From an uncultured Planctomycetia bacterium (GTDB lineage: Bacteria > Omnitrophota > Gorgyraeia > VGKH01 > JBHPFN01), in contig CAYOSQ010000001.1 in the NCBI GenBank assembly GCA_964406665.1, forward strand, positions 199,412 to 263,411: a DNA stretch of 64,000 bases. The letters are read 5' to 3'. A program made the position numbers and the translations under genes. Within the stretch, counting starts at the first letter, position 1; every line of letters begins with the position of its first letter. The notes under the pieces were generated by a model that saw only the letters and a program-made list of their open reading frames with translations, was not told the origin of the DNA and did not search any database. Below, piece after piece: positions 454 to 38,314 of this stretch.

Positions 454-1008
454 ATGGTAGCTATTCAAGAGTTTGTAATATTGGGCTTACTAAAAGATGG
501 ACCTAAGCACGGGTATGAAATCAAGAAGCAGATTAAAGATATCATGGAGCAGTTTGCCGTTTGGGAAGCGCAGTCAATATATTATCCTTTACAGATGATG
601 GAGAAAAAAGGATTAGTGACTAAAAGCTCAGCCCGTTCAGGTAAAAGGCCTGAAAAAATTATCTATAAAATTACAGAATTAGGAGAAACCAGATTTAACG
701 AGATCCTAAGCGAAAGCTTTACAACTATCCAAAGGCCAACGTTCAATATCGATATTTCACTATATTTTCTTCCCTTTATTGATCCAAAATTAGCTAAAAA
801 AGGGCTTAATTTGCGTCTGCGCATACTAAAAAGGATAGAAAGAGGTTTGGAGAAGCTCGACAACACATCAAAAGATAAGTTCCCATATCATCATTTAGCA
901 ATTATTGACCATAATATCGAACTCATAAGGGCAGAGATTAAATTTATCTCTGATTTTATAGACACTTTCGAGAGAAAAACCAGCAAATCTTCACGTAAGT
1001 CCAAATAA
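454..1008 (+). CDS. PadR family transcriptional regulator
   Basis: N-terminal winged-helix typical of PadR (ILGLLKDGPKHGYEIKKQI…YPLQMMEKKGLV). The ATG overlaps the accA stop (TAAATG). Confidence 0.75.
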   Translation: MVAIQEFVILGLLKDGPKHGYEIKKQIKDIMEQFAVWEAQSIYYPLQMMEKKGLVTKSSARSGKRPEKIIYKITELGETRFNEILSESFTTIQRPTFNIDISLYFLPFIDPKLAKKGLNLRLRILKRIERGLEKLDNTSKDKFPYHHLAIIDHNIELIRAEIKFISDFIDTFERKTSKSSRKSK

Positions 1009-1047
1009 ATCAATGGGTTTTTGTTCTGTAAAAAATTAATAATTTAC

Positions 1048-1076
1048 TTGACTTTTTGCGTTCTTTCTATATAATT
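1048..1076 (+). promoter_or_regulatory. sigma70-like promoter (TTGACT -17 nt- ATAATT/TATAAT) upstream of the acyl-CoA ligase gene
   Basis: TTGACT at 1048-1053, an AT-rich spacer, and a TATAAT-like hexamer at about 1069-1076. It lies ~50 nt upstream of the ATG at 1127 with the RBS GGAGG in between. Confidence 0.45.
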
Positions 1077-1126
1077 AAATTTTAATAATTAAATTTTACT
1101 ATAATTTTATACGGAGGCAAGGCTAA

Positions 1127-2641
1127 ATGGATATTAGAAGAGTAGTTCTGGAAAAAGCTAAGCAGTTTCCCGATAAGCCAGCTATTATTTTCAAAGATAC
1201 GACTATTACGTTTTCGCAGCTTAAAGATACTGTTTTTAAGCTGACAAATGCTTTTATAAAAGCAGGCATCAGTAAAGGAAGTAAGGTATCAATATTTTTG
1301 CCTAATTGCCCAGAATATATTTATAGTTATTTAGCTCTATTTTCTATTGGGGCAGTGGTTGTCCCTCTGGATTTTATGCTTACAGAAAGAGAAATAACCG
1401 GATTTATCAACCATAGCGACAGCGTTACATTAATTGCAAAAGGAAAAAAGGAAGTTGATCTTGCCGCTTTAAAAAAGTCTTGTTCTCAGCTTGAAAAGAT
1501 TATTCTTATGGGGGCAGAAGAAAGTTCTGCTAGCGGTGATTTTGTTTCTTGGGAAGATTTATTAACTCAGGATTCACAAGAGCCCAATATACAGGTAGAA
1601 GATGCTGATCATTCAGCGATCTTTTACACTTCTGGTTCTACAGGACATCCAAAAGGAGTGCTTCTTAGTTACGGACATCTTGATAATCCTGTGGAATGTA
1701 TTTATGATTTTTTAAAGGTATCCAGCGACGATAGTTATTTGTCCGCAGGGGTACCTTTTTCTCATTTAGGTGGTTTGGATTATATGATTTTTATGCTAGC
1801 TTTTGGTTCAACTTTAGTTTTAATGGATAGGTTTCATCCTTTGGAAGCACTTAAGAATTTAGTTAAATATAAAGTTACAGTGTTCTGCATAGTTCCTGCG
1901 ATGTATATCGCAATTCTATCAATGAAAGGCATTGAAAATTTTGATCTCTCAGCTTTACGCTATGCAGTTGTTTTTGGTGCGCCTTCATCTCCAGAACTGC
2001 TTAAGAGATTTTTGGCGATTTGTCCTAATGCTAATTTATTAAATGGTTGGGGCATGACAGAAACAGCCGCACCCAATACATATTCTCCTTTTGACACCAG
2101 TAAAATAAGTAGCATTGGTCCTTTTGGACACGGAATGGAAGCTAAGATTGTTGACGAGCAAGGCAATGCTGTAGCAGATAGCGAAAAAGGTGAGTTGTGG
2201 GTTAAAGGAAAAGGAATAATGGTAGGTTATTACAAGGAAGATGAGCTAACTCGAGAAATCATTACAGAAGATGGTTGGCTTAAGACCGGAGATATAGCCC
2301 GCAAGGATACAGATGGTTTGTTTTATATAGTAGGAAGAAAAAAAGAAATGATTAAGGTTGCCGGAGAAATTGTATTTGCTCCGGAGGTCGAGGCAATTTT
2401 GCAGCGCTTTGTAAAGATTCAGGAAGTTGTGGTTGTAGGTATAGCTGATAAATTAAGAGGAGAGGTTCCCAAGGCTTTTATCGTCAAAAAAGAAGGCGAA
2501 CAGCTAACTGAAAATGAAGTTAAATCGTATTCTAAAGAAAATATGGCACATTTTAAAATACCGCACCATATAGAATTTAAAGAAAGTTTACCTAAAACTG
2601 TTTCGGGTAAGATTAATAAACAGGCATTGATAAAAGGTTAA
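1127..2641 (+). CDS. AMP-dependent synthetase/ligase (acyl-CoA or acyl-ACP ligase; candidate starter-unit activating enzyme)
   Basis: AMP-binding signature YTSGSTGHPKGV. The C-terminal …GKINKQAL… lysine motif is typical of adenylate-forming enzymes. 504 aa. Confidence 0.85.
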   Translation: MDIRRVVLEKAKQFPDKPAIIFKDTTITFSQLKDTVFKLTNAFIKAGISKGSKVSIFLPNCPEYIYSYLALFSIGAVVVPLDFMLTEREITGFINHSDSVTLIAKGKKEVDLAALKKSCSQLEKIILMGAEESSASGDFVSWEDLLTQDSQEPNIQVEDADHSAIFYTSGSTGHPKGVLLSYGHLDNPVECIYDFLKVSSDDSYLSAGVPFSHLGGLDYMIFMLAFGSTLVLMDRFHPLEALKNLVKYKVTVFCIVPAMYIAILSMKGIENFDLSALRYAVVFGAPSSPELLKRFLAICPNANLLNGWGMTETAAPNTYSPFDTSKISSIGPFGHGMEAKIVDEQGNAVADSEKGELWVKGKGIMVGYYKEDELTREIITEDGWLKTGDIARKDTDGLFYIVGRKKEMIKVAGEIVFAPEVEAILQRFVKIQEVVVVGIADKLRGEVPKAFIVKKEGEQLTENEVKSYSKENMAHFKIPHHIEFKESLPKTVSGKINKQALIKG

Positions 2642-2658
2642 AACGCAAGGAGATATAT

Positions 2659-2934
2659 ATGTTTAGCCCGACGATGACATGGGAGAAGGAAGTTGAAGAT
2701 AAATTTAAGATAATGACTAATAAGCTACCTGTTTTTCACAGGCATATGGCTGTTGAAGCTGTTACAGCGAAAGCAGAGAAAAACGCAAAGAATAGAAATT
2801 CCCAGGCGGTACAGGAAGAAGATGTCGTAGGTGCATTTTTCTCCGATGTCCCCAGTCCTTTTTATAGTATGATGGTAAGTCTTCTTGAGCAATCAGGGTT
2901 TGATTATAAAAAATACGGATTCCCCAAAACATAA
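2659..2934 (+). CDS. small hypothetical protein (possibly PCP_red/PF08369-like domain; unverified)
   Basis: 91-aa ORF with an AAGGAG RBS 7 nt upstream. The region WEKEVEDKF…PVFHRHMAVEAVTAKAE resembles standalone protochlorophyllide-reductase C-terminal-like domains, from memory only. Confidence 0.45.
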   Translation: MFSPTMTWEKEVEDKFKIMTNKLPVFHRHMAVEAVTAKAEKNAKNRNSQAVQEEDVVGAFFSDVPSPFYSMMVSLLEQSGFDYKKYGFPKT

Positions 2935-2940
2935 GGAAAA

Positions 2941-3969
2941 TTGATGAAGATTGCAGTTATAGGTTCCGGTGCCATAGGAAGTTTAGTGGCTGGATTTTTA
3001 AAGAAAAAGGAGCATAATGTTGTTTTAATTGGCAGAAAAAAGGCTGTTAGCGCAGTTAAGAAAAGTGGCCTGAGGATTTCTGGACCCAGAGGCGACAACA
3101 CTTTTTCAATAGATGTTTTTAATAAACTTAAAGAGAAACCAGGCCTTGTTATTCTTGCTGTCAAGACTCAGGATATAAAAAAAGCACTTGAAGATAATAT
3201 TGATTTTATCAAAGACTCTCTGGTGTTAACCACGCAAAACGGAATTCAGGCGGATAATATCGTTGCAAAATATGTCCCGAAAGAAAACATTGTCTCAAGT
3301 ATTGTAATGTTTGGTTCGACTTGTTTGAAGCCAGGCATTATAGTGCATAATTTTGAGGGGAATTGGATTATCGGGAAGCGTTTTTCTAGCAATGATGAAA
3401 AGGTAGAAAATTTAAGAATGATTTTAAGTGATGCTTTTCCGGTTGTTGTAAGTGATGCTATTACCGGGATGAAATATCTTAAGATTTTTATTAATGCCAA
3501 TAATTGTATTCCCGGAATTTTGGGTCATAGCATGCAGCAGGTTTTCCGTGATAAAGAAATCAGTCAAATAGCCATAGCTATTTGGCGGGAAGGTCTTGAT
3601 GTTGTAAATAAGGCAAATATTGCTTTAGCTTCTTTGCCTAATTTTCCATTAGAGAGATTAAATAAGTTAACTTCTTTACCAATGGATACCGCAGCTGAAA
3701 TATTTTCTGATATTATGATTACCCTAAGTAAAGAGCCATTATATGGATCTATACTTCAGAGCATCAAGCGTGGAAAGATTTCCGAGATTGATTATATAAA
3801 CGGAGAGTTTGTTAATATAGCAAAACGAAATAAATTTCAAGCAGCTTTAAACGAAAAGTTAGTTAATATGGTGCATGATGTTGAGAAAAATAATACTTTT
3901 TTTAGTAAAGAAGAATTAGTCTCAGCTACAAAAGATTTGGCAGGTTTGCAAGGAGAAAAAGATGGTTGA
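2941..3969 (+). CDS. 2-dehydropantoate 2-reductase (ApbA/PanE, KPR) family NAD(P)H-dependent oxidoreductase
   Basis: N-terminal Rossmann motif MKIAVIGSGAIGSLVAGFL. The size and overall layout match the KPR family. Confidence 0.7.
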   Translation: MMKIAVIGSGAIGSLVAGFLKKKEHNVVLIGRKKAVSAVKKSGLRISGPRGDNTFSIDVFNKLKEKPGLVILAVKTQDIKKALEDNIDFIKDSLVLTTQNGIQADNIVAKYVPKENIVSSIVMFGSTCLKPGIIVHNFEGNWIIGKRFSSNDEKVENLRMILSDAFPVVVSDAITGMKYLKIFINANNCIPGILGHSMQQVFRDKEISQIAIAIWREGLDVVNKANIALASLPNFPLERLNKLTSLPMDTAAEIFSDIMITLSKEPLYGSILQSIKRGKISEIDYINGEFVNIAKRNKFQAALNEKLVNMVHDVEKNNTFFSKEELVSATKDLAGLQGEKDG

Positions 3970-4576
3970 TACGCCGTTTCCTAAGTTAAAGCTTACAGTA
4001 AATAAAGTTGAAGGACATTGTTATCATGGTTATAAAATTGGCGATGAAATAGTTTTAGATGATTTTACTCATCCTCCGCAACACTTTTGTTTGGGTTTAG
4101 CGCATGCAATGTTTCCTGTGATATATGCATTGAGTTTTGGAGCGAAGTTTCCTTTTATGGAAAATCAGAGATCACTTTTAGTTACTTGTCCTGATGGAGG
4201 GAAGTTGGAATTTAAGGCTGAAATATTTCAAAAAGATAAACCAGATGTTCAAGTCATGCCGAAAGATCCTAGTCATAAAGGGCCTGATCCAAAGAAGATG
4301 TGTCTTGAGGTAGTAAAGGCAAAGGGAAAATGTTTTTATAAATATAAGGTTGGGGATAAATTTGAAACAACAGGTTTAAAGTGTATGCCCGGTTTCTGCG
4401 GGGCAGCATTTCACACAGCATTCCCTGCACTTTTTGCGCTTAATTTTGGTGCAAAATTCTTTTTTATGGATGATCCGAATACGTTGGATACAATCACTTG
4501 TCCAGACGGCGGCAATATAGTTTTTAAGGCATATAGAGTAGAAGATAAAGAAGATAAAAACGATAAGGAGAAGTAA
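3962..4576 (+). CDS. tandem-duplicated Cys/His-rich small-domain protein (two ~80-aa repeats; resembles TIGR04076-type proteins, unverified)
   Basis: Clear internal duplication: repeat 1 is GHCYHGYKIGDE…CLGLAHAMFPVIYALSFGAKFPFM…VTCPDGGKLEFKA. Repeat 2 is KCFYKYKVGDKF…CMPGFCGAAFHTAFPALFALNFGAKFFFM…ITCPDGGNIVFKA. Confidence 0.6.
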   Translation: MVDTPFPKLKLTVNKVEGHCYHGYKIGDEIVLDDFTHPPQHFCLGLAHAMFPVIYALSFGAKFPFMENQRSLLVTCPDGGKLEFKAEIFQKDKPDVQVMPKDPSHKGPDPKKMCLEVVKAKGKCFYKYKVGDKFETTGLKCMPGFCGAAFHTAFPALFALNFGAKFFFMDDPNTLDTITCPDGGNIVFKAYRVEDKEDKNDKEK

Positions 4577-4579
4577 TAA

Positions 4580-5848
4580 ATGGCAAAGAGAAGAGTAGTT
4601 ATCACCGGCTTAGGAGTTGTTTCTCCTAACGGTATAGGAAAAGAAAGAGTTTGGCAAGGTATGTCGCAGGGCAAGTCAGCGGTAAAGTTAGTTGATGGTT
4701 TCGACGTATCTTTATTTAATACAAAGATAGCTGCTGAAGTACGTGATTTTGATCCGTTTAAACTTGGCCTAACACATGAAGAAGTAATGCGTATGGACCG
4801 ATATGTTCAGTTTGCTGTTACTTCTGCGGATATGGCTATTAAGGATGCAAACATAGATTTCTCTAAATTAGATACTACCCAATATGGTGTTTGTTTAGCA
4901 AATGCAATCTGTGGAACGAAGTATATGGAAGAAGAATTTTCTATGGTAACAGATAGTGGAAAGAATCCGATCGATCCTTCTAAGGTTCGTCCTGATTTGT
5001 ATGATGCCGCAATGTTTAATACACCATCTAGTGAAATCAGCGCACGTTATGGCTTAAAAGGTATTTGTAATACAATATCAACAGGATGTACCGCAGGAAC
5101 AGATTCTGTAGGTTTTGCTTTTGAAGAGATTCAAGATGGTAATCAGGATTTGATGATTACCGGCGCAGCCGAGGCCCCGATTACTCCGATTACTTTTGGT
5201 GCGTTTGATGTGGTAAATGTTTTATCAGTTCATAACGACGAGCCGGAAAAGGCATCTCGCCCATTCGACGCTAAAAGAAATGGTTTTGTTTTATCCGAAG
5301 GCGCGGGAATATTGATTTTAGAAGAGCTTAATCATGCGCTTAATAGAGGAGCTAGGATTTATGCCGAAGTCACCGGCTATGGTTCAACCTGCAATGCTTT
5401 TCATATGACAGACTTACCTTCAGATGGTGATGCTATGGTTAAAAGTATTAATTTAGCACTTGAAGATTCTAAAACTAAACCAGAGGAAATTGATCATATC
5501 AATGCCCATGGATCATCAACTAGACAGAATGATGTTTTCGAGACCAATGCCTATAAAAGGTCTTTAGGTGAATGGGCCTATAAAATCCCGATTAGTTCTT
5601 TAAAATCCATGATCGGCCATCCTTTAGCAGCGGCAAACGCTGTTGAGATGGTTGTGTCCTGTCTTATTTTTCAAAATAATTTTTTACCCCCAACAATAAA
5701 TCAAGAAACCCCGGATCCTGAATGCGATTTGGATTATATCCCTAATATAGGAAGAGAAAAAAAAGTAGACGTTATTCTAAAGACAAGCAGCGGTTTTTCC
5801 GGAATTCATTCATCTTTAGTGTTGAGGAGATTGGAGGGACAATCATGA
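4580..5848 (+). CDS. beta-ketoacyl synthase, KS-alpha type (type II PKS/FAS condensing enzyme)
   Basis: Active-site Cys in …ISTGCTAGTDSVGFA…. The two catalytic His lie in …NAHGSSTRQND… and …MIGHPLAAANAVE…. 422 aa. Confidence 0.9.
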   Translation: MAKRRVVITGLGVVSPNGIGKERVWQGMSQGKSAVKLVDGFDVSLFNTKIAAEVRDFDPFKLGLTHEEVMRMDRYVQFAVTSADMAIKDANIDFSKLDTTQYGVCLANAICGTKYMEEEFSMVTDSGKNPIDPSKVRPDLYDAAMFNTPSSEISARYGLKGICNTISTGCTAGTDSVGFAFEEIQDGNQDLMITGAAEAPITPITFGAFDVVNVLSVHNDEPEKASRPFDAKRNGFVLSEGAGILILEELNHALNRGARIYAEVTGYGSTCNAFHMTDLPSDGDAMVKSINLALEDSKTKPEEIDHINAHGSSTRQNDVFETNAYKRSLGEWAYKIPISSLKSMIGHPLAAANAVEMVVSCLIFQNNFLPPTINQETPDPECDLDYIPNIGREKKVDVILKTSSGFSGIHSSLVLRRLEGQS

Positions 5849-7089
5849 AAAATATTGCCATAACAGGTATGGGGGTACTTACTGCTGCTGGAATCGGCAA
5901 GGCTAATTTCTGGAGAAACATTCGTCACGGAAAATCTTTTATTACTCCCATAACACGTTTTGATTCTTCTCGCTATCCTTCTAGGATTGCCGGGCAGATA
6001 AAAGATTTAGATGCCTACAGCAATATTTCTCCCAGACTACTTAAGAAAATAGATGCGTTTTCGCATATGTCTTTGGTTGCTTGTGAGCTAGCGTTAAAAG
6101 ATGCGCACATAGATTTATCAAAAGAGAATCTTGATAGAGTGGGAATTTTTGCAGGAAATGCTATCGGAGGCTGGCTTTATGCTGAGACAGAGCTTAGAGA
6201 CCTATACATAGAAGGAAGAGAAGGAGTGAGTCCTTTTATGGCTTCAGCATGGTTTCCTGCAGCACCACAGGGGCAGATGTCTATTTATTATGGAATAAAA
6301 GGATTTTCTAAAACTTTTGTTGCCGATAGAGCAGGTTCTCTTATGGCAATTGCTTATGGAGCAAAGACACTAGAGAGAAGAGATATAGATATTATTTTAG
6401 CCGGAGGCATGGAAGCACCTGTTACTCCTTATGCGCTTCTTTGCTGCAGCACAAACGGTTCTTTATCACAGAAGAACGATATCCCGGAAACGGCCTATAA
6501 ACCGTTTGATAAAGATAGAGATGGTTTTGTGATTGGGGAAGGTTCAGGTATTCTTACTTTAGAAAATGAATCTCGGGCAAGAAATCGTAGTGCCAAAATT
6601 CACGGATTCATTCGTGGGTTTGGAACTACCTGTGACGGTGTAGATAGAATAGAACCTGCCGAAGATGGAGAAGATTTAGCTCGTGCAATTAGGCTGGCTT
6701 TGGAAGAAGCAGAGTTTGACTCTAACACGATTGATTATATTTGTGCTGACGGCGCAGCTACTGAAATAGGAGATATAAGCGAAACCAATGCTATTAAAAA
6801 AGTTTTTGGTGAGAAGGCTAAAAGTATTCCTGTGAGTGTGCCTAAGGCAATGTTTGGGAATCTGTTAGGGGCGTCTGGTTCTGTAGATTTAATTACAACG
6901 ATTCTGGCAATGGAACACGGATTGGTTCCGCCAACAATAAATTATAATAAAACCGATTCAAAATGTGATTTAGATTATGTTCCTAATGAAAATCAGGAAA
7001 AAGAAATTAAGCGCGCATTGATTATTTCGCGTGGAAGAGGCGGGATTAATGCAGTGTTAGCCGTAGAAAAGGAGGTAGAGGATAAATGA
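5845..7089 (+). CDS. ketosynthase-like partner subunit (KS-beta / chain-length-factor-like) lacking the active-site Cys
   Basis: Paralogous to the upstream KS (shared …EAPVTP…, …DGFV.GEG.G…). The position aligned with the catalytic Cys reads …FVADRAGSL…, with no Cys or Gln. It is translationally coupled to KS-alpha by an ATGA overlap. Confidence 0.8.
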   Translation: MKNIAITGMGVLTAAGIGKANFWRNIRHGKSFITPITRFDSSRYPSRIAGQIKDLDAYSNISPRLLKKIDAFSHMSLVACELALKDAHIDLSKENLDRVGIFAGNAIGGWLYAETELRDLYIEGREGVSPFMASAWFPAAPQGQMSIYYGIKGFSKTFVADRAGSLMAIAYGAKTLERRDIDIILAGGMEAPVTPYALLCCSTNGSLSQKNDIPETAYKPFDKDRDGFVIGEGSGILTLENESRARNRSAKIHGFIRGFGTTCDGVDRIEPAEDGEDLARAIRLALEEAEFDSNTIDYICADGAATEIGDISETNAIKKVFGEKAKSIPVSVPKAMFGNLLGASGSVDLITTILAMEHGLVPPTINYNKTDSKCDLDYVPNENQEKEIKRALIISRGRGGINAVLAVEKEVEDK

Positions 7090-7328
7090 GTAGCGAAATT
7101 GAACAGAAAGTAAAAGATATTTTCCAGAGCACTATCGGGATTAAGCCAGAAGAGATTCAGGCTGATTCAAAGTTATATGACTCACTAAGCGTAGATTCTA
7201 CAGAGATGGTAGAGATCACAGTGGCACTAGAGAAAACTTTTAATATTAAATTCGATAAAGATCAGATTAGTAAGTTTTCATCTTTTGGTGAAATTGTGGG
7301 AATAATTGATTCAAAACAAAGTGTATAA
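7086..7328 (+). CDS. acyl carrier protein
   Basis: 80 aa with the phosphopantetheine attachment motif …YDSLSVDSTEMVE… (DSL Ser). It overlaps the KS-beta stop. Confidence 0.85.
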   Translation: MSSEIEQKVKDIFQSTIGIKPEEIQADSKLYDSLSVDSTEMVEITVALEKTFNIKFDKDQISKFSSFGEIVGIIDSKQSV

Positions 7329-7331
7329 ATA

Positions 7332-8147
7332 ATGGGTTCAGAAAAAAAACAGATAATTGATTTAAGTCTTCCTATCGATGATACCTTGAAAGAAACCCAC
7401 GCGGCAAAAATTGATCGCATAAGCCACGAACAAGGTGTAGAGCATTTTAACTGGGTGCTTATGACTAAGCAGCCTAATGGTCAAGAGCGTTTTGATAAGG
7501 GAGAGAGAATCATTACTTCCGATGATGTTCCTGATGGACAGCTGCTTTCATTAGAGATTGTTCATTCTTCAGTGCATATGGGCACACATGTTGATGCGCC
7601 ATTTCATTATGGAAGCGATTGTGAAGGAAGGCCTTCTAAGTGCATAAATGATTTACCGCTTCAATGGTGTTATTCAGATGGAGTTGTATTGGATTTTACA
7701 AAAAAGAAACATCCTGAAACAATCAACAAGCAAGATGTCGTTAATGTTTTAAAGAAGATAAATTATAAATTAAAATCGTTGGATATCGTTTTGTTTTCAA
7801 CTGGTGCAGATAAAATGGTAGGAACCCCGGAATATATAAGTAAATATATCGGCGTTGAACCAGAAGCCGTTGAGTATTTATTAGATCAGGGTATCAAGAT
7901 GATGGGCGTTGATACCTTAGGGTTAGACAGGCCTTGCTTTGAAATGTTTAAAGAATTTTTAGAGACAAAAGATAAATCGCTTCTCTGGCCGTCGCATTTT
8001 CTAGGACGTAAGCGCGAATTTGCCCATATGGAACGCTTAGGCAACTTAGATAAAATACCTAAGCCGTTTGGGTTTAAGGTTTCCTGTTTTCCTGTTAAGG
8101 TAAGAAATGCTGGCGCGGGCTGGGCACGAGTGGTTGCAATAATATAA
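7332..8147 (+). CDS. cyclase family protein (PF04199; kynurenine-formamidase-like metal-dependent hydrolase/polyketide cyclase)
   Basis: Signature HMGTHVDAPFHY (HxGTHxDxPxH). Confidence 0.8.
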   Translation: MGSEKKQIIDLSLPIDDTLKETHAAKIDRISHEQGVEHFNWVLMTKQPNGQERFDKGERIITSDDVPDGQLLSLEIVHSSVHMGTHVDAPFHYGSDCEGRPSKCINDLPLQWCYSDGVVLDFTKKKHPETINKQDVVNVLKKINYKLKSLDIVLFSTGADKMVGTPEYISKYIGVEPEAVEYLLDQGIKMMGVDTLGLDRPCFEMFKEFLETKDKSLLWPSHFLGRKREFAHMERLGNLDKIPKPFGFKVSCFPVKVRNAGAGWARVVAII

Positions 8148-8166
8148 TAATTGATCGGAGGATAAA

Positions 8167-8607
8167 ATGGGACATACATGTAATTCTATAGCGATAAATG
8201 CACCCTATGATTTAGTTTTTGATATCTCTAACGATATCGAACGCTGGACAGAACTTTTTGGCGGAGAATATAAGGAAGCAAAGATTCTAAAGCGCGAAGA
8301 CAATAAACTTACATTTAAATTGACCGATGATGAAGATCGTTCCTGGCAGTCATATAGGATTTTAAATAAAGAACATAAATTTGCCTATGCGCAGAAACTA
8401 CCACCGGAGTTTCCTTTTAAATATATGAAGATAATTTGGCTGTATACGCCGTCTCCCGAGGGAATTATCATGACCTGGATTCAGCATTATACAATGGATG
8501 ATAAGGCAAAATTTACAGATGAACAGGTTGATGAGATGATTAATAAACACTCTAAAGAAAACCTTAATATCTTTAAAGATATTATTGAGAAAGAAGCAGT
8601 AAAATAA
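8167..8607 (+). CDS. SRPBCC superfamily protein (polyketide aromatase/cyclase-like, Polyketide_cyc2-type)
   Basis: 146 aa. N-terminus …SIAINAPYDLVFDISNDIERWTELFGG… is typical of SRPBCC cyclase/dehydrase proteins. RBS GGAGG upstream. Confidence 0.6.
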   Translation: MGHTCNSIAINAPYDLVFDISNDIERWTELFGGEYKEAKILKREDNKLTFKLTDDEDRSWQSYRILNKEHKFAYAQKLPPEFPFKYMKIIWLYTPSPEGIIMTWIQHYTMDDKAKFTDEQVDEMINKHSKENLNIFKDIIEKEAVK

Positions 8608-8618
8608 TAGAATAATTT

Positions 8619-9740
8619 ATGCATCAGAAAATAACATATTATATATTTTGTCTTATCGGCTTAATAATTGCTTTTAATGTGGGATCAATTTCTGCTATTG
8701 TGCCGTCTGTAGCTAGGGAATTAGGTCATCCAGAATTTGTTGCTGGTCGAATTATCTGGGCGTATATGTTGCCTTATGGGATATGTGCTTTATTTTATGG
8801 GCCACTTTCGAGAAAATTTAAGATTAAGAATATTCTTTTAGTATGTTTAAGTTTGTTTTCAGTTTTCAGTTTTCTCTCTGGCTTGGCCAACACTTTTAGC
8901 AGTCTGTTTACATTTCGTTTTATAGTTGGTATTTTTGCCTCAGCAATGACGCCGCTTGCGCTGCTTTATATATCTCATAAATTTAATTCAGAGAAAAGAG
9001 GTAAGGCTGTAGGGACATTTTTTAGTATAACATTTTTATCTTCTTTGACAGGTTTGTTTTTAAGCGGACTTATTAGTTGGAGATTTATATTTTTTATTCC
9101 TGCTGTAATAAGTGCTGCTACAGTTGTTTTAATATTCAAAGCTTTTCCTGAATTTACAATTGAAGTGGAAAGTTTAAAAAGCAGATACATTCAGGCATTA
9201 AAGACGCAGAAGATATTTCGCGTATTCCTGTATATATTTGCTATAAGCTTCTTTTATCATTTAGCTCGTGACTGGATGGGAGTTTATTTTGATAATAGAT
9301 ATGGCTTATCTCAGTTTGCAATTAGCTCTCTTTTGACTCTGGTAAGCTTTGCTGGGATATTCGGAGAATTTTTCGGAGGAATGTTCGCAGACAAAAAGGG
9401 AAGGATATTTGCGTTATCAGCAGGTGCCTTGTTGATGAGCATAGCATTGATTTTATTACCTGTAAGCGGTAAGATAATTTTTTTAGCAATTATTATGCTT
9501 ATTTGGGGGTTAGGTTGGACTATCAATCATTCCGGGCTTTCTACCTATCTTACTGATTTGCCTAAGCCATATTTACAGGAAGTGACGAGCTTAAACAGTT
9601 CAGTGCGCTTTATTTCCGGAGGTTTAGGTGCAGCATTAGGTGGATTATTAATGCAGAAAAGTTTTACTTTGACTTTCTCTGTGGTAGGTATAATTTTCTT
9701 GGCTTTATCTGTATTTTCTAGACAGATATTAAAGACATAA
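8619..9740 (+). CDS. MFS transporter (putative product exporter)
   Basis: 373 aa with ~12 predicted TM segments and an MFS-like loop motif (…GPLSRKFKIKN…). Confidence 0.7.
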   Translation: MHQKITYYIFCLIGLIIAFNVGSISAIVPSVARELGHPEFVAGRIIWAYMLPYGICALFYGPLSRKFKIKNILLVCLSLFSVFSFLSGLANTFSSLFTFRFIVGIFASAMTPLALLYISHKFNSEKRGKAVGTFFSITFLSSLTGLFLSGLISWRFIFFIPAVISAATVVLIFKAFPEFTIEVESLKSRYIQALKTQKIFRVFLYIFAISFFYHLARDWMGVYFDNRYGLSQFAISSLLTLVSFAGIFGEFFGGMFADKKGRIFALSAGALLMSIALILLPVSGKIIFLAIIMLIWGLGWTINHSGLSTYLTDLPKPYLQEVTSLNSSVRFISGGLGAALGGLLMQKSFTLTFSVVGIIFLALSVFSRQILKT

Positions 9741-9771
9741 ATTAGAACATAGATAAAAAATGGAGGTTGTA

Positions 9772-10545
9772 ATGAGTGATTTGAAAGGAAAGAGCGCCAT
9801 CATTACAGGTGCAAGCCGTGGCATTGGCAAAGCCATTGCTATGCGTCTGGCTAAAAGTGGCGTGAACATTGTTTTGGCTGCAAGGACAAAAGAAGTTTTA
9901 GATGAGACAACAGAGCTGATTAAAAAAGAAACTGGTGTTAAGGCTATAGGGATTCCCACGGACGTTAGCAAATTAGAGGATCTTAAGAATTTAGCTGATT
10001 CTGCAAAGAAGGAATTTAAAACAATTGATATCCTTATTAATAATGCCGGGGTTTCTAGTCAGTTTCCATTTGAAAAACAACCATTTGAAGATCTGGAGCG
10101 TTTAGCGCATACCAATTATTTAGGATATGTGCGCTTAATCCGTCTGCTTATTCCGGATATGATCGAGAGAAAAAGCGGGTCGATTATAAACATGGTATCA
10201 GGCTCTACTTTAGTAGATCCAGTACCTAGGACGTTTTTAACTTATAGTTCTCTTAAAGTTGGTTTACGGGCGTTTTCCAAGGGTTTATTCTGGGAGATGA
10301 GAGATCACGGGATAAAGGTAACTTCTATTTTACCCGGAGTTGCTGATACAGATTTAACCGGAAAGTTGCAGAATATTACGCAAGAGTCTAAGGAGCGTCT
10401 TATTACAGCAGATACTATTGTAGATACTGTAATGTTTGCTTTATCGGTTCCAGCCAATGCTTGTCCGATAGAACTGGCAGTGATTAATCAGCAGACACCT
10501 TGGGCAAAACCAGTAATTCCATTTGCACAAAAACATCCAAAATAA
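9772..10545 (+). CDS. SDR family oxidoreductase (FabG/ketoreductase-like)
   Basis: TGASRGIGKAIA Rossmann motif, NNAG, and YSSLK in the catalytic-YxxxK-like region. A GGAGG RBS 6 nt upstream supports this ATG over the ORF-track start at 9760. Confidence 0.8.
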   Translation: MSDLKGKSAIITGASRGIGKAIAMRLAKSGVNIVLAARTKEVLDETTELIKKETGVKAIGIPTDVSKLEDLKNLADSAKKEFKTIDILINNAGVSSQFPFEKQPFEDLERLAHTNYLGYVRLIRLLIPDMIERKSGSIINMVSGSTLVDPVPRTFLTYSSLKVGLRAFSKGLFWEMRDHGIKVTSILPGVADTDLTGKLQNITQESKERLITADTIVDTVMFALSVPANACPIELAVINQQTPWAKPVIPFAQKHPK

Positions 10546-10561
10546 AGGAAAGGAGTATCAA

Positions 10562-12022
10562 ATGAAAGTTTTATTCGTAACACCACAATTAGGTTCATGG
10601 GCAACACACGGTCATCACTTAGCACCAAATCAGCTGCACGCACAGTGGGCAGCGTTTATAAGGGAAAAAGGAACAGCAGAGGTTGAGGTATTGGATTGCA
10701 AGGCAATGGAGATTCCTAAAGATAAAATGGTTCAGATGATTAAAGAAAAGAATCCTGACTTTGTAGTTTTAGGAGATATGTTGCATTCATACGGAGGATA
10801 TGGAGTTCTTTGGCATTTCAACGAGTCAGCTAAGATGATTAAAGAAGCCAATCCGAACCAGACAATAATCGTAGGCGGCCTGTGGTATTCGGCAATGCCG
10901 ACGCAAACGCTGGAAGATAATCCAGCTATAGATTATGTAGTAATGGGTGAAGAAGAAGCATTCAATGATTTATTAATAGCAATTGAAGAGAATAAAAATC
11001 TAAAAGAAGTTGCTGGGGTAACTTCTAGAATAAATAATGAGATAGTAATGGGTCCACACAGGCCGCTATCGACGGATCTAGATAGCCTTCCTCTTCCGGC
11101 TTACGATTTGTTTCCCATGGAAAAATATGTCGGGCATACATATTGGATGCCGTTTGTCGAAATAGTTACATCCCGGGGATGTCCGTCGGCATGTACTTTT
11201 TGTTATGAATGGGATCAATATGATCCGCGACACCCGAATGATTTCTTAAAATGGCGGGCAAAATCTCCCAAGAGAGTTATCGAAGAGCTAGATCTTTTAC
11301 ATGAGAAGTTCGGTGTAAAGGTAGTAGTAATCCAAGATGATAATTTTAATGTTAATCCCGAGCGCGTAAAAGAGTTCTGTGAGTTAAAGTTAAAGAGCAA
11401 GAATCCAATTAAGTGGGTTTCTTTAGGACGTGCGGTTGATTGGGTTAACTGTGAGAGTATTTTGCCTCTTATGAAAGAAGCAGGTTTCTTCTTGGGAGTA
11501 TTTGGTATTGAAGTTACCACAGAAGAAGAACTTAAGAAAATCGCAAAAGGTATAACAATCAAACAGATAAGAAAGACGATTGATATATTAAGAGGAAATA
11601 ATATTGCAGTAGTTGCAGATATCATGGTAGGTTTTGATCATGATAGTGAACGTACTATCAAACAGAGATTCGAATTTACCGATGAAGTTGACCCGGATAT
11701 TCTCTGGGTTGGTTTTGTAACACCTGCGCCAAACTCTCCAATTTGGAAGAAAGGTATTACTAAAGGTTTAATTGATTATAAAGGAATTGATTTCAGACAG
11801 TGGGATTTTTTGCATCCGGTTATGCCTACAGATCATTTGTCTCCCGAGGATTTAGGAAGATTAGGTGCATGGTGCATGAGAGAGTTTTTCAGTAAGCCCG
11901 GTAGAATTCACAGAATTATGGAGAGTGATTTCGACCAGTTAGCAAAAGTATGTTTTCAGGATGTTATGAATAATGTACCTAAATGGGAAGCTGGAGCAAC
12001 TAAGGGAGAAGCACATATCTAA
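10562..12022 (+). CDS. B12-binding domain radical SAM protein
   Basis: An N-terminal cobalamin-binding-like domain is followed by the CxxxCxxC radical SAM motif (…RGCPSACTFCYE…). An AGGAG RBS precedes the ATG at 10562; the longer ORF-track start at 10523 has no RBS. Confidence 0.8.
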   Translation: MKVLFVTPQLGSWATHGHHLAPNQLHAQWAAFIREKGTAEVEVLDCKAMEIPKDKMVQMIKEKNPDFVVLGDMLHSYGGYGVLWHFNESAKMIKEANPNQTIIVGGLWYSAMPTQTLEDNPAIDYVVMGEEEAFNDLLIAIEENKNLKEVAGVTSRINNEIVMGPHRPLSTDLDSLPLPAYDLFPMEKYVGHTYWMPFVEIVTSRGCPSACTFCYEWDQYDPRHPNDFLKWRAKSPKRVIEELDLLHEKFGVKVVVIQDDNFNVNPERVKEFCELKLKSKNPIKWVSLGRAVDWVNCESILPLMKEAGFFLGVFGIEVTTEEELKKIAKGITIKQIRKTIDILRGNNIAVVADIMVGFDHDSERTIKQRFEFTDEVDPDILWVGFVTPAPNSPIWKKGITKGLIDYKGIDFRQWDFLHPVMPTDHLSPEDLGRLGAWCMREFFSKPGRIHRIMESDFDQLAKVCFQDVMNNVPKWEAGATKGEAHI

Positions 12023-12023
12023 A

Positions 12024-12962
12024 ATGAAAATCTGGGATAGCCATAATCATTGGATGCCGCCGGAGGTGGCAGAAAATACTACTTTTTTTAAGGTGCATTG
12101 GTCTGATAGCGACGCATTGCTGAAAGCTTTAGATAGTGCACAGATTGAAAAGGCAGTATTGTTATATCCTACATCTGATGCACATTTAAATATGGGAGGA
12201 TGGGCAGATGTCTGTTCTGTCTATAATCAGGAAGTTGCCAAAAAGGTAAAGCAGCATCCTGATAGGTTTATCGGAGCAGGAATTCTTCCTGTTGATTCTC
12301 CTGATAAGATGGTTGATGAGGTAGTTAGAATTAAAGAATTAGGTTTATCAGCTTTATCGTTAGCATCAAGCTATGACGGTAAGTTTCTTGATGATGAAAT
12401 GTTCTTAGGTGTATTTGAGATGGCAGAAAAACAAGGACTTCCTGTATTTGTACATTCACAGATTATGAATCCTATTGGTTTTGAGAGAGTGAAAGATCCT
12501 CTTTTGATGCCGGTTTTAGAGTATGTTTTTGACGTAACTATGTGCGCAGGTAAACTTATGATGGAAGGAGTTTTTGCAAGGTTTCCTAAGCTTAAGTTTG
12601 TGTTTGCGCATTTTGCCGGAATAATGCCGTTTGTAGGTGATAGGTTTGATGCTACATATTCTATGTTGCGTACCAGAAATATCGTAAAAGATTTAGGAGC
12701 GCAACCAACAGAGATATTAAAGAATATTTTTGTAGATGCAAGTGGAACAAAATCTAAAGCTATGCTTAATATGGCGCTGGAATTTTTCGGTCCCACAAGA
12801 ATCATCTGGGGATCAGATTTTCCTGCAAAGCGTGATTTAGCCGAAAGTATAAATACGGTTAAGGCTTTAGATATTAAAGATAAATCAAAACAGGCAATTT
12901 TATCAGAGAATATTAAATCGATTTTCAAACGAGACAACAACTTACGGAATGCAATGACGTAA
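12024..12962 (+). CDS. amidohydrolase-2 (PF04909, ACMSD/metal-dependent hydrolase or decarboxylase) family protein
   Basis: N-terminal …KIWDSHNHWMPPE… (HxH metal motif). The ~310-aa size suits a TIM-barrel fold. The ATG at 12024 lies just after the rSAM stop. Confidence 0.65.
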   Translation: MKIWDSHNHWMPPEVAENTTFFKVHWSDSDALLKALDSAQIEKAVLLYPTSDAHLNMGGWADVCSVYNQEVAKKVKQHPDRFIGAGILPVDSPDKMVDEVVRIKELGLSALSLASSYDGKFLDDEMFLGVFEMAEKQGLPVFVHSQIMNPIGFERVKDPLLMPVLEYVFDVTMCAGKLMMEGVFARFPKLKFVFAHFAGIMPFVGDRFDATYSMLRTRNIVKDLGAQPTEILKNIFVDASGTKSKAMLNMALEFFGPTRIIWGSDFPAKRDLAESINTVKALDIKDKSKQAILSENIKSIFKRDNNLRNAMT

Positions 12963-13034: not shown

Positions 13035-13105
13035 TTAATTCGGACAAATGATTTATGTCGGCAGGTGCCTCCATAAATCATGTCATCATTAAAAGGAGAA
13101 TAGGT

Positions 13106-14802: not shown

Positions 14803-14812
14803 AAGGAAAGCT

Positions 14813-15268: not shown

Positions 15269-15284
15269 ACATAAGGAAATAATT

Positions 15285-38272: not shown

Positions 38273-38314
38273 CCTCTTTTTAATTTCATATTCTTATATA
38301 TATTATAAAAAAAA

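What the first reader, a model, noticed from the sequence alone, without database searches (positions are those of the whole stretch)
454..12962. Compact type II PKS-like biosynthetic gene cluster in a low-GC diderm genome
A contiguous, same-strand, tightly spaced (many 4-nt overlaps) set of genes encodes the classic minimal aromatic-PKS triad plus accessory enzymes.

- Triad: KS-alpha with Cys/His/His, a Cys-less KS-beta/CLF-like partner, and a dedicated ACP.
- Two different cyclase types: a PF04199 HxGTHxDxPxH cyclase and an SRPBCC aromatase/cyclase-like protein.
- An SDR ketoreductase, an MFS exporter, an upstream AMP-dependent ligase (candidate starter-unit loader, cf. AntG in the Photorhabdus anthraquinone cluster), a KPR-family reductase and a PadR regulator.
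- Tailoring candidates: a B12-binding radical SAM enzyme and a PF04909 amidohydrolase/decarboxylase.

No DH/FabZ or thioesterase is present, which argues against an aryl-polyene or fatty-acid locus. Type II PKS clusters outside actinomycetes are rare, and this gene combination (rSAM + ACMSD-like amidohydrolase + tandem Cys/His protein) does not match any cluster I can name.
Basis: partly seen in the sequence, partly recalled or inferred. Interest (0 to 1): 0.85.

Follow-up and report, generated by a model that had tools for sequence, protein, structure and literature searches.

The report
Conserved type II polyketide synthase operon, Omnitrophota
This is a real aromatic (type II) polyketide synthase gene cluster of the old, non-actinomycete kind; unusually, it is a fixed, vertically inherited operon in at least 80 species genomes of the uncultivated phylum Omnitrophota and carries oxygen-independent tailoring enzymes, so its unknown product probably has a physiological role.

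Summary
Window 454-12962 is one same-strand, tightly packed operon.

- KS1 falls in the KS-alpha clade with actinorhodin KS and AntD, not with FabF.
- KS2 falls with chain-length factors, although it has Arg where canonical CLFs have Gln.
- The SRPBCC protein matches WhiE-ORFVI and TcmN.

The organism is Candidatus Omnitrophota. The gene set KS-CLF-ACP-OxyN-TcmN matches the published "ancestral" non-actinomycete architecture.

Three points are unusual.
- The operon occurs, in the same order, in at least 80 Omnitrophota species genomes. 294 species genomes encode a KS1 relative.
- KS1 and the TIGR04076 protein are more conserved than the neighbouring accA.
- The tailoring set (BchE-like rSAM, TIGR04076, DUF2621-like protein) has no characterised counterpart.

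A 2023 CLF catalogue lists the phylum among those with KS-CLF hits but gives no analysis. The product and its function remain unknown. Verdict: a new variant of a known kind, of moderately high interest.

The parts
49..453 (+). 3' part of accA (acetyl-CoA carboxylase carboxyltransferase alpha). It is a flanking housekeeping gene that makes the malonyl-CoA precursor.
   Evidence: PF03255, 195 bits. It lies upstream of PadR in 16/34 complete loci.
454..1008 (+). PadR-family transcriptional regulator
   Evidence: PF03551, 59.4 bits. Present in 19/34 complete loci; median identity 43%.
1048..1075 (+). Best sigma-70-like promoter match (TTGACT-16-TATAAT, 11/12), in the 118-nt gap before the operon
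   Evidence: This is a consensus match only; the total number of sites in the region is not above chance.
1127..2641 (+). Acyl-CoA/AMP-forming ligase; an optional accessory gene
   Evidence: PF00501 and PF13193. FadD-like in NCBIfam but below cut-off. Present in 7/34 complete loci. 26% identical to the ligase in the Laceyella type II PKS locus.
2659..2934 (+).
   Evidence: PF11084, 22.2 bits, below cut-off. Present in 34/34 complete loci; median identity 61%. Matches the C-termini of a HemN-like rSAM protein and a U32-peptidase protein in a C. botulinum type II PKS locus, at E 2e-9 and 3e-12.
2941..3969 (+). Ketopantoate-reductase-family NAD(P)H oxidoreductase
   Evidence: PF02558 and PF08546; TIGR00745 at 162 bits, above its 141 cut-off. 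Present in 34/34 loci.
3962..4576 (+). Tandem TIGR04076 protein with two Cys/His-rich repeats; function unknown
4580..5848 (+). KS-alpha (catalytic ketosynthase)
   Evidence: C170/H310/H347 are invariant in 82/82 orthologues. It lies in the KS-alpha clade.
5845..7089 (+). KS-beta / chain-length-factor partner, Arg-type and without the catalytic triad
   Evidence: D161-R162, D302 and N339 replace the triad and are invariant in 73 orthologues. There is a 4-nt overlap with KS1. It lies in the CLF clade in 100/100 bootstraps.
7086..7328 (+). Dedicated acyl carrier protein
   Evidence: PF00550, 43.1 bits. The D37-S38 attachment motif is invariant in 56/56.
7332..8147 (+). PF04199 (OxyN/ActIV-type) metal-dependent cyclase
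   Evidence: PF04199, 103.5 bits. H82, G84, H86, D88 and H92 are invariant. 43% identical to the cyclase in the Laceyella type II PKS locus.
8167..8607 (+). Monodomain TcmN/WhiE-type aromatase/cyclase (SRPBCC fold)
   Evidence: WhiE-ORFVI at 96.8 bits and TcmN at 83.9 bits. The residues aligned to TcmN S67/R69 and Y35 are conserved (S62, R64, Y35) (residue roles from PMC10945814).
8619..9740 (+). MFS transporter (probable exporter)
   Evidence: PF07690, 145.5 bits. Weak best NCBIfam matches are to aromatic-acid/H+ symporter and drug-efflux families. Present in 30/34 loci.
9760..10545 (+). SDR ketoreductase, generic FabG-like
   Evidence: PF00106, 170.7 bits. Actinorhodin KR is not among the top 60 PDB hits. 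Present in 34/34 loci.
10523..12022 (+). B12-binding radical SAM enzyme, BchE-like (probable true start at ATG 10562)
   Evidence: PF02310 and PF04055. Best NCBIfam match is BchE at 209 bits (cut-off 481), then HpnJ at 152 and PhpK at 126; the ladderane/lipid rSAM model TIGR04072 scores only 85 against a 360 cut-off. The CxxxCxxC motif is invariant in 60/60. Present in 34/34 loci, usually between KS2 and ACP.
11973..12962 (+). Amidohydro_2 non-oxidative decarboxylase-like enzyme (probable true start at ATG 12024)
   Evidence: PF04909, 90.5 bits. Best PDB hits are LigW 5-carboxyvanillate decarboxylase, ACMSD and gamma-resorcylate decarboxylase. Present in 33/34 loci.
13055..17779 (+). Linked salvage block: nucleoside phosphorylase, MtnA-like isomerase (plus a truncated paralogue), class II aldolase-SCP2 and aldehyde dehydrogenase. 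I read it as a DHAP-shunt-like route for 5'-deoxyadenosine/MTA.
   Evidence: The block stays next to the PKS operon in both arrangements, downstream in most loci and upstream in L030, L033, L038, L047, L067, L073, L081 and L084. The functional link is inferred.

Best explanation
This is an operon for a type II (iterative, aromatic) polyketide synthase of the early-diverging non-actinomycete kind. It is inherited vertically as a fixed chromosomal locus in Candidatus Omnitrophota.

Proposed mechanism:
- Acetyl-CoA carboxylase (accA lies next door) supplies malonyl-CoA.
- A malonyl transferase and a phosphopantetheinyl transferase encoded elsewhere load the dedicated ACP.
- The KS1/KS2 heterodimer builds an unreduced poly-beta-ketoacyl-ACP. 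KS1 is the catalytic subunit, and KS2 is an inactive Arg-type chain-length-factor partner.
- The monodomain TcmN/WhiE-type aromatase/cyclase closes and aromatises the first ring, typically C9-C14.
- The PF04199 OxyN-type cyclase closes a further ring.
- The LigW-like enzyme removes the terminal carboxylate.
- The SDR and the KPR-family reductase reduce carbonyls.
- The BchE-like B12-radical-SAM enzyme performs an oxygen-independent modification. This could be C-methylation, or a BchE-style oxidation or ring closure.
- The conserved TIGR04076 tandem protein and the 91-aa DUF2621-like protein may assist that step.
- The MFS transporter exports the product, under PadR control.
- The adjacent phosphorylase/isomerase/aldolase/aldehyde-dehydrogenase block would recycle the 5'-deoxyadenosine made by the radical SAM enzyme.

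Shown here: the gene identities, the catalytic residues, the clade memberships, and the conservation and synteny.

Inferred: chain length, ring pattern, the order and chemistry of tailoring, export, the role of the salvage block, and the biological function.
For: Domains and motifs.

KS1 belongs with KS-alpha.
- PDB ranking: Act KS 398.7 bits, AntD 395.8, best FabF 350.9.
- It shares an insertion and the STGC motif with KS-alpha proteins.
- Neighbour-joining bootstraps support the grouping in 45/50 and 100/100 replicates.
- The same clade holds a Laceyella protein annotated 'minimal PKS ketosynthase (KS/KS alpha)' and a C. botulinum KS.

KS2 belongs with CLF partners.
- It groups with the CLF partners of those KS-alpha proteins in 100/100 bootstraps.
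- It shares the D-R motif with three of them.

Cyclases.
- The SRPBCC protein hits WhiE-ORFVI and TcmN at E 1e-26 and 1e-22, and keeps the substrate-anchoring Ser and Arg (PMC10945814).
- The cyclase and the ARO/CYC are 43% and 40% identical to those in the Laceyella type II PKS locus.

Other evidence.
- The gene set equals the published ancestral KS-CLF-ACP-TcmN-OxyN architecture (PMC7693217).
- 294 species genomes encode a KS1 relative, and the best 80 are all Omnitrophota at 73-87% identity.
- Nine core genes are present in 34/34 complete loci, in conserved order.
- KS1 and TIGR04076 have a median identity of 76%, against 64% for accA.
- GC across the cluster lies within the range of the rest of the window.
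Against: - No product, expression data or enzyme assay exists.
- KS2 has Arg, not the Gln of canonical CLFs. By raw score it is nearer FabF (312.8 bits) than actinorhodin CLF (249.3 bits).
- The trees are neighbour-joining on limited taxon sets, not maximum likelihood against a curated reference set.
- The SDR is generic and not close to polyketide C-9 ketoreductases.
- PF04199 proteins are also amidohydrolases, and the nearest solved relatives are isatin hydrolase and kynurenine formamidase, at weak scores.
- The SRPBCC protein fails the Polyketide_cyc2 threshold.
- No PPTase or malonyl-CoA:ACP transacylase lies in the 64-kb window.
- Phylum-wide vertical conservation is atypical for secondary-metabolite clusters.
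- I could not test whether these genomes carry a separate FabF/FabH fatty-acid synthase.
Confidence: 0.75

Rival explanations
1. The enzymology is the same (type II PKS), but the product is a primary-metabolism molecule rather than an antibiotic-type secondary metabolite. It could be a quinone or polyphenol used as a redox carrier or cofactor, or as protection against oxygen, and needed by most members of the lineage.
For: - The operon sits at a fixed place between accA and a salvage operon. Its order is conserved in at least 80 species genomes, and nine core genes are present in 34/34 complete loci.
- KS1 and TIGR04076 are more conserved than accA.
- GC across the cluster lies within the range of the rest of the window, and the window context is housekeeping.
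- Quinone biosynthesis is reported as patchy or incomplete in several Omnitrophota classes (PMC10066038).
- From my own knowledge, not checked here: clostrubin-type polyketides were reported to help anaerobes survive oxygen.
Against: - A conserved MFS transporter and a PadR regulator suggest export of, or resistance to, a phenolic product.
- No prenyltransferase or other quinone-pathway gene lies in the operon or in any related locus whose gene content was listed.
- There are no physiological data.
- Co-occurrence with the men and ubi genes was not tested.
Confidence: 0.25
2. A lipid or highly reducing type II system (ladderane-like, aryl-polyene-like or polyene-like), in which the KS pair, ACP, SDR and B12-radical-SAM enzyme build or modify an unusual acyl chain rather than an aromatic polyketide.
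For: - KS, ACP, SDR and a B12-rSAM enzyme together resemble proposed ladderane loci.
- antiSMASH 'ladderane' clusters have been reported in Omnitrophota MAGs (PMC9902471).
- An acyl-CoA ligase resembling long-chain fatty-acid ligases is present in the window.
Against: - No dehydratase or enoyl reductase is present in the operon.
- KS1 and KS2 lie in the aromatic KS-alpha and CLF clades.
- The polyene-type KS 6kxd scores only 227.8 bits against KS1.
- A TcmN/WhiE aromatase/cyclase and an OxyN-type cyclase are invariably present.
- The rSAM enzyme scores 85 bits on the lipid/ladderane model TIGR04072, against a 360 cut-off.
- The ligase is absent from 27/34 complete loci.
Confidence: 0.05
3. The two KS genes are the organism's housekeeping FabF/FabB pair, and the neighbouring genes are unrelated.
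For: - The best NCBIfam models for both proteins are fabF (464.7 and 398.4 bits), and KS1 passes the PRK07314 subfamily cut-off.
- accA is adjacent.
- The existence of another FAS II KS in these genomes was not tested.
Against: - Both proteins fall below the fabF equivalog cut-off of 493.75.
- KS2 lacks all three catalytic residues, invariably.
- Both proteins sit in the KS-alpha and CLF clades, not with FabF.
- No fabH, fabD, fabZ or fabI lies in the operon.
- The cyclases always co-occur with the pair.
Confidence: 0.02

Closest known systems
[quoted passage not shown]
   Same: - The core gene set is the same: KS-alpha, CLF, ACP, a TcmN-type aromatase/cyclase, an OxyN/PF04199-type cyclase and an oxidoreductase.
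- KS1 falls in the same clade as AntD.
- An AMP-ligase, as in ant (AntG), is present in a minority of loci.
- Terminal decarboxylation is also proposed for dendrubins.
   Different: - The TcmN domain is single, not duplicated.
- There is no AntB PPTase and no AntI chain-shortening hydrolase.
- It adds a BchE-like B12-rSAM enzyme, a TIGR04076 tandem protein, a KPR-family reductase, a DUF2621-like protein and a LigW-like decarboxylase.
- It is conserved across many species of a phylum, rather than occurring sporadically.
Clostridial type II PKS loci (clostrubin/wexrubicin type; here the C. botulinum locus L090)
   Same: - The host is an anaerobe.
- It has KS-alpha, a Cys-less CLF, an SRPBCC cyclase and an MFS transporter.
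- A B12-binding rSAM gene lies directly next to the KS gene.
- The DUF2621 domain is present there too, fused to a HemN-like rSAM protein and to a U32 protein.
   Different: - The B12-rSAM enzymes are only 21% identical, so they are not orthologues.
- The clostridial CLF has Met at the Cys position, and the locus has no PF04199 cyclase within the stretch seen.
- No TIGR04076 or KPR gene is present there.
Laceyella/Thermoactinomyces type II PKS locus (L089; KS annotated 'minimal PKS ketosynthase')
   Same: - KS-alpha is 45% identical, and the CLF is 41% identical and also Arg-type (D-R motif).
- The PF04199 cyclase is 43% identical and the SRPBCC protein 40% identical.
- An AMP-ligase is present.
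   Different: - The Laceyella locus carries its own PPTase, SAM-dependent methyltransferases, cupins and a chorismate-binding enzyme.
- It has no rSAM, TIGR04076, KPR or Amidohydro_2 gene.
Actinomycete WhiE spore-pigment and tetracenomycin PKSs
   Same: The aromatase/cyclase is of the WhiE-ORFVI/TcmN monodomain type, which acts on unreduced chains. KS-alpha is homologous.
   Different: - Those systems have Gln-type CLFs, TcmI/TcmJ-type cyclases and O2-dependent oxygenases (ABM, anthrone oxygenase). The canonical-type locus L088 shows the same set.
- None of these is present in this window's operon.
BchE, the anaerobic Mg-protoporphyrin monomethyl ester oxidative cyclase
   Same: BchE is the best family match for the B12-rSAM enzyme, and the match runs almost full length (residues 17-444 against profile positions 3-416 of 497).
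   Different: The score of 209 bits is far below the 481 equivalog cut-off. The genomic context is polyketide, not chlorophyll. The function is untested.

Membership tests
Type II (aromatic) PKS minimal PKS | KS-alpha with a Cys-His-His triad that falls in the KS-alpha clade rather than with FabF | tested here: met
   C170/H310/H347 are invariant in 82/82 orthologues. PDB ranking puts Act KS and AntD above FabF. Neighbour-joining bootstraps support the grouping in 45/50 and 100/100 replicates. It shares the insertion and the STGC motif.
Type II (aromatic) PKS minimal PKS | An adjacent, translationally coupled KS-beta/CLF that lacks the active-site Cys and falls in the CLF clade | tested here: met
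   R162/D302/N339 replace the triad. It groups with CLF partners from six KS-alpha loci, to the exclusion of FabF and KS-alpha, in 100/100 bootstraps.
Type II (aromatic) PKS minimal PKS | Gln at the CLF position equivalent to the KS active-site Cys (canonical actinomycete CLF) | tested here: not met
   The residue is Arg, invariant in 73/73 orthologues. Arg is also found in the CLFs of L085, L086 and Laceyella L089. Gln is found only in the canonical-type locus L088.
Type II (aromatic) PKS minimal PKS | A dedicated ACP with a phosphopantetheine-attachment Ser | tested here: met
   PF00550, 43.1 bits. D37-S38 is invariant in 56/56.
Type II (aromatic) PKS minimal PKS | Makes an unreduced poly-beta-ketone chain of defined length from malonyl units | not testable with these tools
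   This needs in vitro reconstitution or heterologous expression.
TcmN/WhiE-type monodomain aromatase/cyclase | SRPBCC fold with significant similarity to TcmN/WhiE-ORFVI and the pocket residues that anchor the substrate | tested here: met
   WhiE at 96.8 bits (E 1e-26) and TcmN at 83.9 bits. S62, R64 and Y35 align with TcmN S67, R69 and Y35 (the roles of S67 and R69 are from PMC10945814). It passes Polyketide_cyc but fails the Polyketide_cyc2 cut-off.
OxyN/ActIV-type (PF04199) polyketide cyclase | PF04199 domain with the HxGTHxDxPxH motif, encoded within a type II PKS locus | tested here: met
   103.5 bits against a 23.1 cut-off. The His, Gly, His, Asp and His positions are invariant. It is 43% and 37% identical to the PF04199 genes in type II PKS loci L089 and L086. 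Cyclase activity rather than hydrolase activity was not tested. Equating OxyN with PF04199 rests on my own knowledge.
Housekeeping FabF (beta-ketoacyl-ACP synthase II) | Reaches the TIGR03150 equivalog cut-off and groups with FabF | tested here: not met
   464.7 and 398.4 bits against a cut-off of 493.75. Both are placed outside FabF in the trees. KS2 is catalytically dead.
Ladderane/lipid-type KS plus B12-rSAM loci | A B12-rSAM enzyme of the TIGR04072 family, with dehydratase and reductase genes for a reduced chain | tested here: not met
   TIGR04072 scores 85.1 bits against a 360 cut-off. No dehydratase or enoyl reductase domain is present in the operon.
Aryl-polyene / highly reducing type II PKS | FabZ/FabA-like dehydratases and a KR acting in each cycle, with a KS from the polyene clade | tested here: not met
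   No dehydratase is present. The polyene-type KS 6kxd scores 227.8 bits against KS1, versus 398.7 for Act KS. Aryl-polyene reference KS sequences were not included in the trees.
BchE anaerobic oxidative cyclase | Reaches the TIGR02026 equivalog cut-off | tested here: not met
   209.3 bits against a 481.35 cut-off. BchE is nevertheless the best-scoring family.
Photorhabdus AQ-256 (ant) cluster | antA-I gene set including the AntB PPTase and the AntI lyase | tested here: not met
   No ACPS/Sfp domain or alpha/beta-hydrolase is present in the operon or the window. The ligase is present in only 7/34 complete loci.

The most novel reading that the evidence does not exclude
The operon makes an aromatic polyketide that is part of core Omnitrophota physiology, such as a quinone-type redox carrier or an oxygen-protective polyphenol. 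Its maturation would be entirely oxygen-independent. The BchE-like B12-radical-SAM enzyme, helped by the TIGR04076 tandem Cys/His protein and the DUF2621-like protein, would carry out the oxidation or ring chemistry that aerobes do with O2-dependent anthrone oxygenases. This would give a first handle on how strict anaerobes oxygenate or otherwise finish aromatic polyketides. The dendrubin study left that gap open, because it found no oxygenase or methyltransferase gene in the den cluster (PMC7693217).
Probability: 0.15. Interest if true: 0.85.

Novelty: new variant of a known kind. Interest (0 to 1): 0.6.

Why it matters
Type II polyketide synthases are usually patchy, strain-level secondary metabolism, studied mainly in actinomycetes. 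Here an early-diverging version is a stable, strongly conserved operon across many species of an uncultivated, mostly ultra-small and often anaerobic phylum. The main Omnitrophota genomics papers I checked do not mention it.

That pattern suggests a product with a physiological or ecological role common to the lineage. Possible roles are redox chemistry, oxygen protection, or interaction with hosts or prey.

The operon is short, about 10 kb, which makes it a practical target for expression.

Three strictly conserved genes beside the KS have no assigned role in polyketide biosynthesis: the BchE-like B12-rSAM enzyme, the TIGR04076 tandem protein and the DUF2621-like protein. They are candidates for oxygen-independent tailoring chemistry.

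The slowly evolving Arg-type CLF may also help to root the KS-alpha/CLF duplication.

Tried and rejected
- **KS2 as a FabF duplicate.** Raw PDB similarity suggested that KS2 is FabF-like rather than a CLF. I rejected this after fetching real CLF partners from the loci of the nearest KS-alpha relatives and building a tree.
- **SDR as a polyketide C-9 ketoreductase.** This is not supported, because the hits are generic FabG-like proteins.
- **rSAM orthology with the clostridial B12-rSAM enzyme.** Rejected at 21% identity. A methyltransferase assignment is not secure, because BchE is the best family match.
- **Recent duplication of mtnA to explain the 162-aa IF-2B ORF.** Rejected at 26% identity.
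- **Separate FAS II in the same genomes.** I could not test this with the tools. The Omnitrophota papers I searched do not address it.
- **Promoter and terminator scan.** The counts are no higher than in shuffled sequence. Only one strong promoter-like site, at 1048-1075, is worth noting.
- **Literature.** Searches for TIGR04076 and for Omnitrophota polyketides found nothing functional.
- **Chain length.** I did not attempt a prediction from the CLF gate residues, because I had no reliably numbered reference.

Full report
**What is in the sequence**

ORF listing and Pfam/NCBIfam scans show one same-strand block from 454 to 12962:

| Coordinates | Gene |
|---|---|
| 454-1008 | PadR regulator |
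| 1127-2641 | AMP-forming acyl-CoA ligase |
| 2941-3969 | Ketopantoate-reductase-family oxidoreductase |
| 3962-4576 | 204-aa protein made of two TIGR04076 repeats |
| 4580-5848, 5845-7089 | Two ketosynthases (KS1, KS2) |
| 7086-7328 | ACP |
| 7332-8147 | PF04199 cyclase |
| 8167-8607 | SRPBCC protein |
| 8619-9740 | MFS transporter |
| 9760-10545 | SDR |
| 10523-12022 | B12-binding radical SAM enzyme |
| 11973-12962 | PF04909 amidohydrolase-2 protein |

- Junctions are overlaps of 4-8 nt or gaps of 3-19 nt.
- The only sizeable gap, 118 nt before the ligase, holds the best promoter-like match in the region.
- No dehydratase, enoyl reductase or thioesterase domain is present.
- The rest of the window is housekeeping: LeuRS, MurJ, UvrC, RF2, SecA and ComEC.
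- Diderm markers are present: BamD/YfiO, a lipid A acyltransferase and Lnt.
- GC across the cluster lies within the range of the rest of the window.

**Are the ketosynthases polyketide-type?**

KS1 keeps Cys170/His310/His347. In KS2 the three positions are Arg162/Asp302/Asn339.

- Against solved structures, KS1 scores best with actinorhodin KS-alpha (398.7 bits) and Photorhabdus AntD (395.8 bits), ahead of every FabF (350.9 bits or less). It scores far above the polyene-type KS 6kxd (227.8 bits).
- KS1 shares an STGC motif and a roughly 7-residue insertion with KS-alpha proteins that FabF lacks.
- I searched 1.84 billion cluster representatives and built a neighbour-joining tree of the best 150 plus references. 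KS1 falls in a 24-member clade with Act KS-alpha, AntD, a Laceyella protein annotated 'minimal PKS ketosynthase (KS/KS alpha)' and a Clostridium botulinum KS. The clade excludes the FabF references in 45/50 bootstraps.

KS2 at first looked FabF-like (FabF 312.8 bits, Act CLF 249.3 bits). I therefore fetched the genes that follow six of those KS-alpha relatives.

- With these real partners in the tree, KS2 and its Omnitrophota orthologues group with them, to the exclusion of FabF and KS-alpha, in 100/100 bootstraps. KS1 joins KS-alpha in 100/100.
- The Asp-Arg motif at the former Cys position is shared with three of those partners, including the Laceyella one. Gln occurs only in the partner from a canonical-type locus that also has TcmI/TcmJ-type cyclases, ABM proteins and an anthrone oxygenase.

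KS2 is therefore an Arg-type, slowly evolving chain-length-factor homologue. The trees are neighbour-joining on limited taxa, so a maximum-likelihood analysis against curated sets is still desirable.

**Accessory enzymes**

- **SRPBCC protein.** It hits WhiE-ORFVI (E 1e-26) and TcmN (E 1e-22), and nothing else of note. In the alignment, the residues matching TcmN Ser67 and Arg69, which anchor the substrate hydroxyls (PMC10945814), and Tyr35 are conserved. TcmN-type enzymes carry out C9-C14 first-ring closure on unreduced chains (PMC10945814).
- **PF04199 protein.** It has the complete metal motif, which is invariant across orthologues. It is 43% identical to the PF04199 gene in the Laceyella type II PKS locus. 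Its solved relatives are only weakly similar hydrolases.
- **PF04909 protein.** It is closest to non-oxidative aromatic-acid decarboxylases: LigW, ACMSD and gamma-resorcylate decarboxylase.
- **SDR.** It is a generic FabG-like protein.
- **Radical SAM enzyme.** It has the CxxxCxxC motif and a B12 domain. Its best family is BchE, the anaerobic oxidative cyclase, at 209 bits and well below the cut-off. HpnJ and PhpK follow. The lipid/ladderane rSAM model scores only 85 bits against a 360 cut-off.
- **TIGR04076 tandem protein.** It has eleven invariant Cys/His residues. It has no solved relative by sequence and only weak fold matches.
- **91-aa protein.** It matches the C-terminal domains of a HemN-like radical SAM protein and of a U32-peptidase-family protein in the C. 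botulinum type II PKS locus. That links it to anaerobic tailoring enzymes, although its role is unknown.

**Whose genome, and how conserved?**

KS1 homologues at 76-87% identity come almost entirely from Candidatus Omnitrophota/Omnitrophica MAGs and SAGs.

- A scan of one genome per GTDB species found 294 genomes encoding a relative. The best 80, at 73-87% identity, are all Omnitrophota by title or by synteny. A few are labelled Planctomycetales in their records.
- In the 34 loci with enough flanking DNA, nine genes are present in 34/34: the 91-aa gene, KPR, KS1, KS2, ACP, cyclase, SRPBCC, SDR and rSAM.
- The decarboxylase is present in 33/34, TIGR04076 in 31/34, MFS in 30/34 and the ligase in only 7/34.
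- Gene order is nearly fixed. The main variable is the rSAM gene, which usually lies between KS2 and ACP.
- Median identities are KS1 76%, TIGR04076 76%, rSAM 71%, SRPBCC 69%, SDR 68% and KS2 65%. The neighbouring accA is at 64%.
- The catalytic and pseudo-catalytic residues are invariant.
- The operon usually sits between accA-PadR and a block encoding a nucleoside phosphorylase, an MtnA-like isomerase, a class II aldolase-SCP2 fusion and an aldehyde dehydrogenase. In one subclade this block has moved upstream but is still adjacent.
- Because the aldolase resembles aldolases rather than the MtnB dehydratase, I read the block as a DHAP-shunt-type salvage route for 5'-deoxyadenosine/MTA. It is plausibly tied to the radical SAM enzyme. 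This is inference.

**Comparison with what is known**

The core set KS-CLF-ACP-OxyN-TcmN equals the 'ancestral' non-actinomycete architecture described for the dendrubin, AQ-256 and pyxidicycline clusters (PMC7693217).

- A 2023 catalogue of CLFs lists Candidatus Omnitrophica among 14 phyla with KS-CLF pairs. It places them in a 'previously unexplored non-actinobacterial clade' and gives no further analysis (PMC10132072).
- Two phylum-wide Omnitrophota genomics papers do not mention polyketides.
- A Cariaco Basin study reports antiSMASH 'ladderane' clusters in Omnitrophota (PMC9902471). Whether those are this operon was not checked.
- The tailoring set has no characterised counterpart that I could find: the BchE-like B12-rSAM enzyme, the TIGR04076 tandem protein, the KPR-family reductase, the DUF2621-like protein and the LigW-like decarboxylase.

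**Mechanism and verdict**

The best-supported reading is an iterative type II PKS that makes an unreduced chain.

1. The TcmN/WhiE-type and OxyN-type cyclases close and aromatise the rings.
2. The product is then decarboxylated, reduced and modified by oxygen-independent radical chemistry.
3. It is probably exported.

Chain length, ring pattern, the rSAM reaction and the biological role are all inferred or unknown.

The strict vertical conservation argues for a lineage-wide role, and possibly a primary one. That is the main rival or novel reading. Lipid-type and housekeeping-FabF readings are poorly supported.

The finding is a new variant of a known kind. The enzymology is familiar, but the tailoring genes are uncharacterised and the evolutionary pattern is unusual. 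I rate interest at 0.6.

Noticed in passing
window 13055-17779; also L003 17132-21266 and L038, L067, L073, L081: A block encoding a nucleoside phosphorylase, an MtnA-like isomerase, a class II aldolase fused to an SCP2 domain, and an aldehyde dehydrogenase stays next to the PKS operon. This holds whether the block lies downstream (most loci) or upstream (one subclade). The aldolase scores as an aldolase rather than as the MtnB dehydratase. That suggests a DHAP-shunt-type salvage route for 5'-deoxyadenosine/MTA, linked to the radical SAM enzyme.
   Followed up: partly
window 14780-15268: A 162-aa ORF (TTG start) matches only the C-terminal half of the IF-2B/MtnA family. It is 26% identical to the full-length MtnA-like gene just upstream. 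It is therefore a truncated, divergent paralogue and not a recent duplication. It has no counterpart in L003.
   Followed up: partly
L090 (Clostridium botulinum GCA_011010585.1) 196-11754: This clostridial type II PKS locus carries a HemN-like radical SAM protein, a U32-peptidase-family protein and a B12-radical-SAM enzyme next to KS/CLF. The first two each have a C-terminal DUF2621-like domain. The set looks like oxygen-independent tailoring, and the DUF2621-like domain corresponds to the stand-alone 91-aa protein of the window.
   Followed up: partly
window 17820-20066: A carbamoyltransferase (PF02543/PF16861) is followed by a small SxtJ-like protein (PF19588), directly after the aldehyde dehydrogenase. 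The pairing is reminiscent of saxitoxin-type carbamoylation genes. Its relation to the PKS operon is unknown.
   Followed up: no
window 37172-40843, minus strand: A pretoxin-HINT domain protein (PF07591) lies downstream of two ORFs with no Pfam match (664 aa and 149 aa). They form a minus-strand island with reversed GC skew in an otherwise plus-strand window. It may be a polymorphic-toxin-like cassette.
   Followed up: no
L006, L009, L014, L015, L031, L047, L052, L053, L078 (record titles): Several public MAGs that carry this Omnitrophota-type operon at 73-78% KS1 identity, in the same gene order, are titled 'Planctomycetales' or 'Planctomycetia'. One homologue is labelled Patescibacteria and one Deltaproteobacteria. 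These are probably taxonomic mislabels or binning errors.
   Followed up: no
L038, L067, L073 (KPR ends directly before KS1): In one subclade the otherwise highly conserved TIGR04076 tandem gene is missing from its place between KPR and KS1, while the rest of the operon is intact. Its sister loci L047 and L081 keep a divergent copy at 44-46% identity.
   Followed up: partly
P0121, P0124 and other 780-880-aa proteins: Many high-scoring database relatives are single polypeptides that fuse a Cys-His-His KS to a second, triad-less KS domain. In P0124 the second domain has Arg at the Cys position, as KS2 does. These natural KS-CLF-like fusions have not been examined.
   Followed up: no
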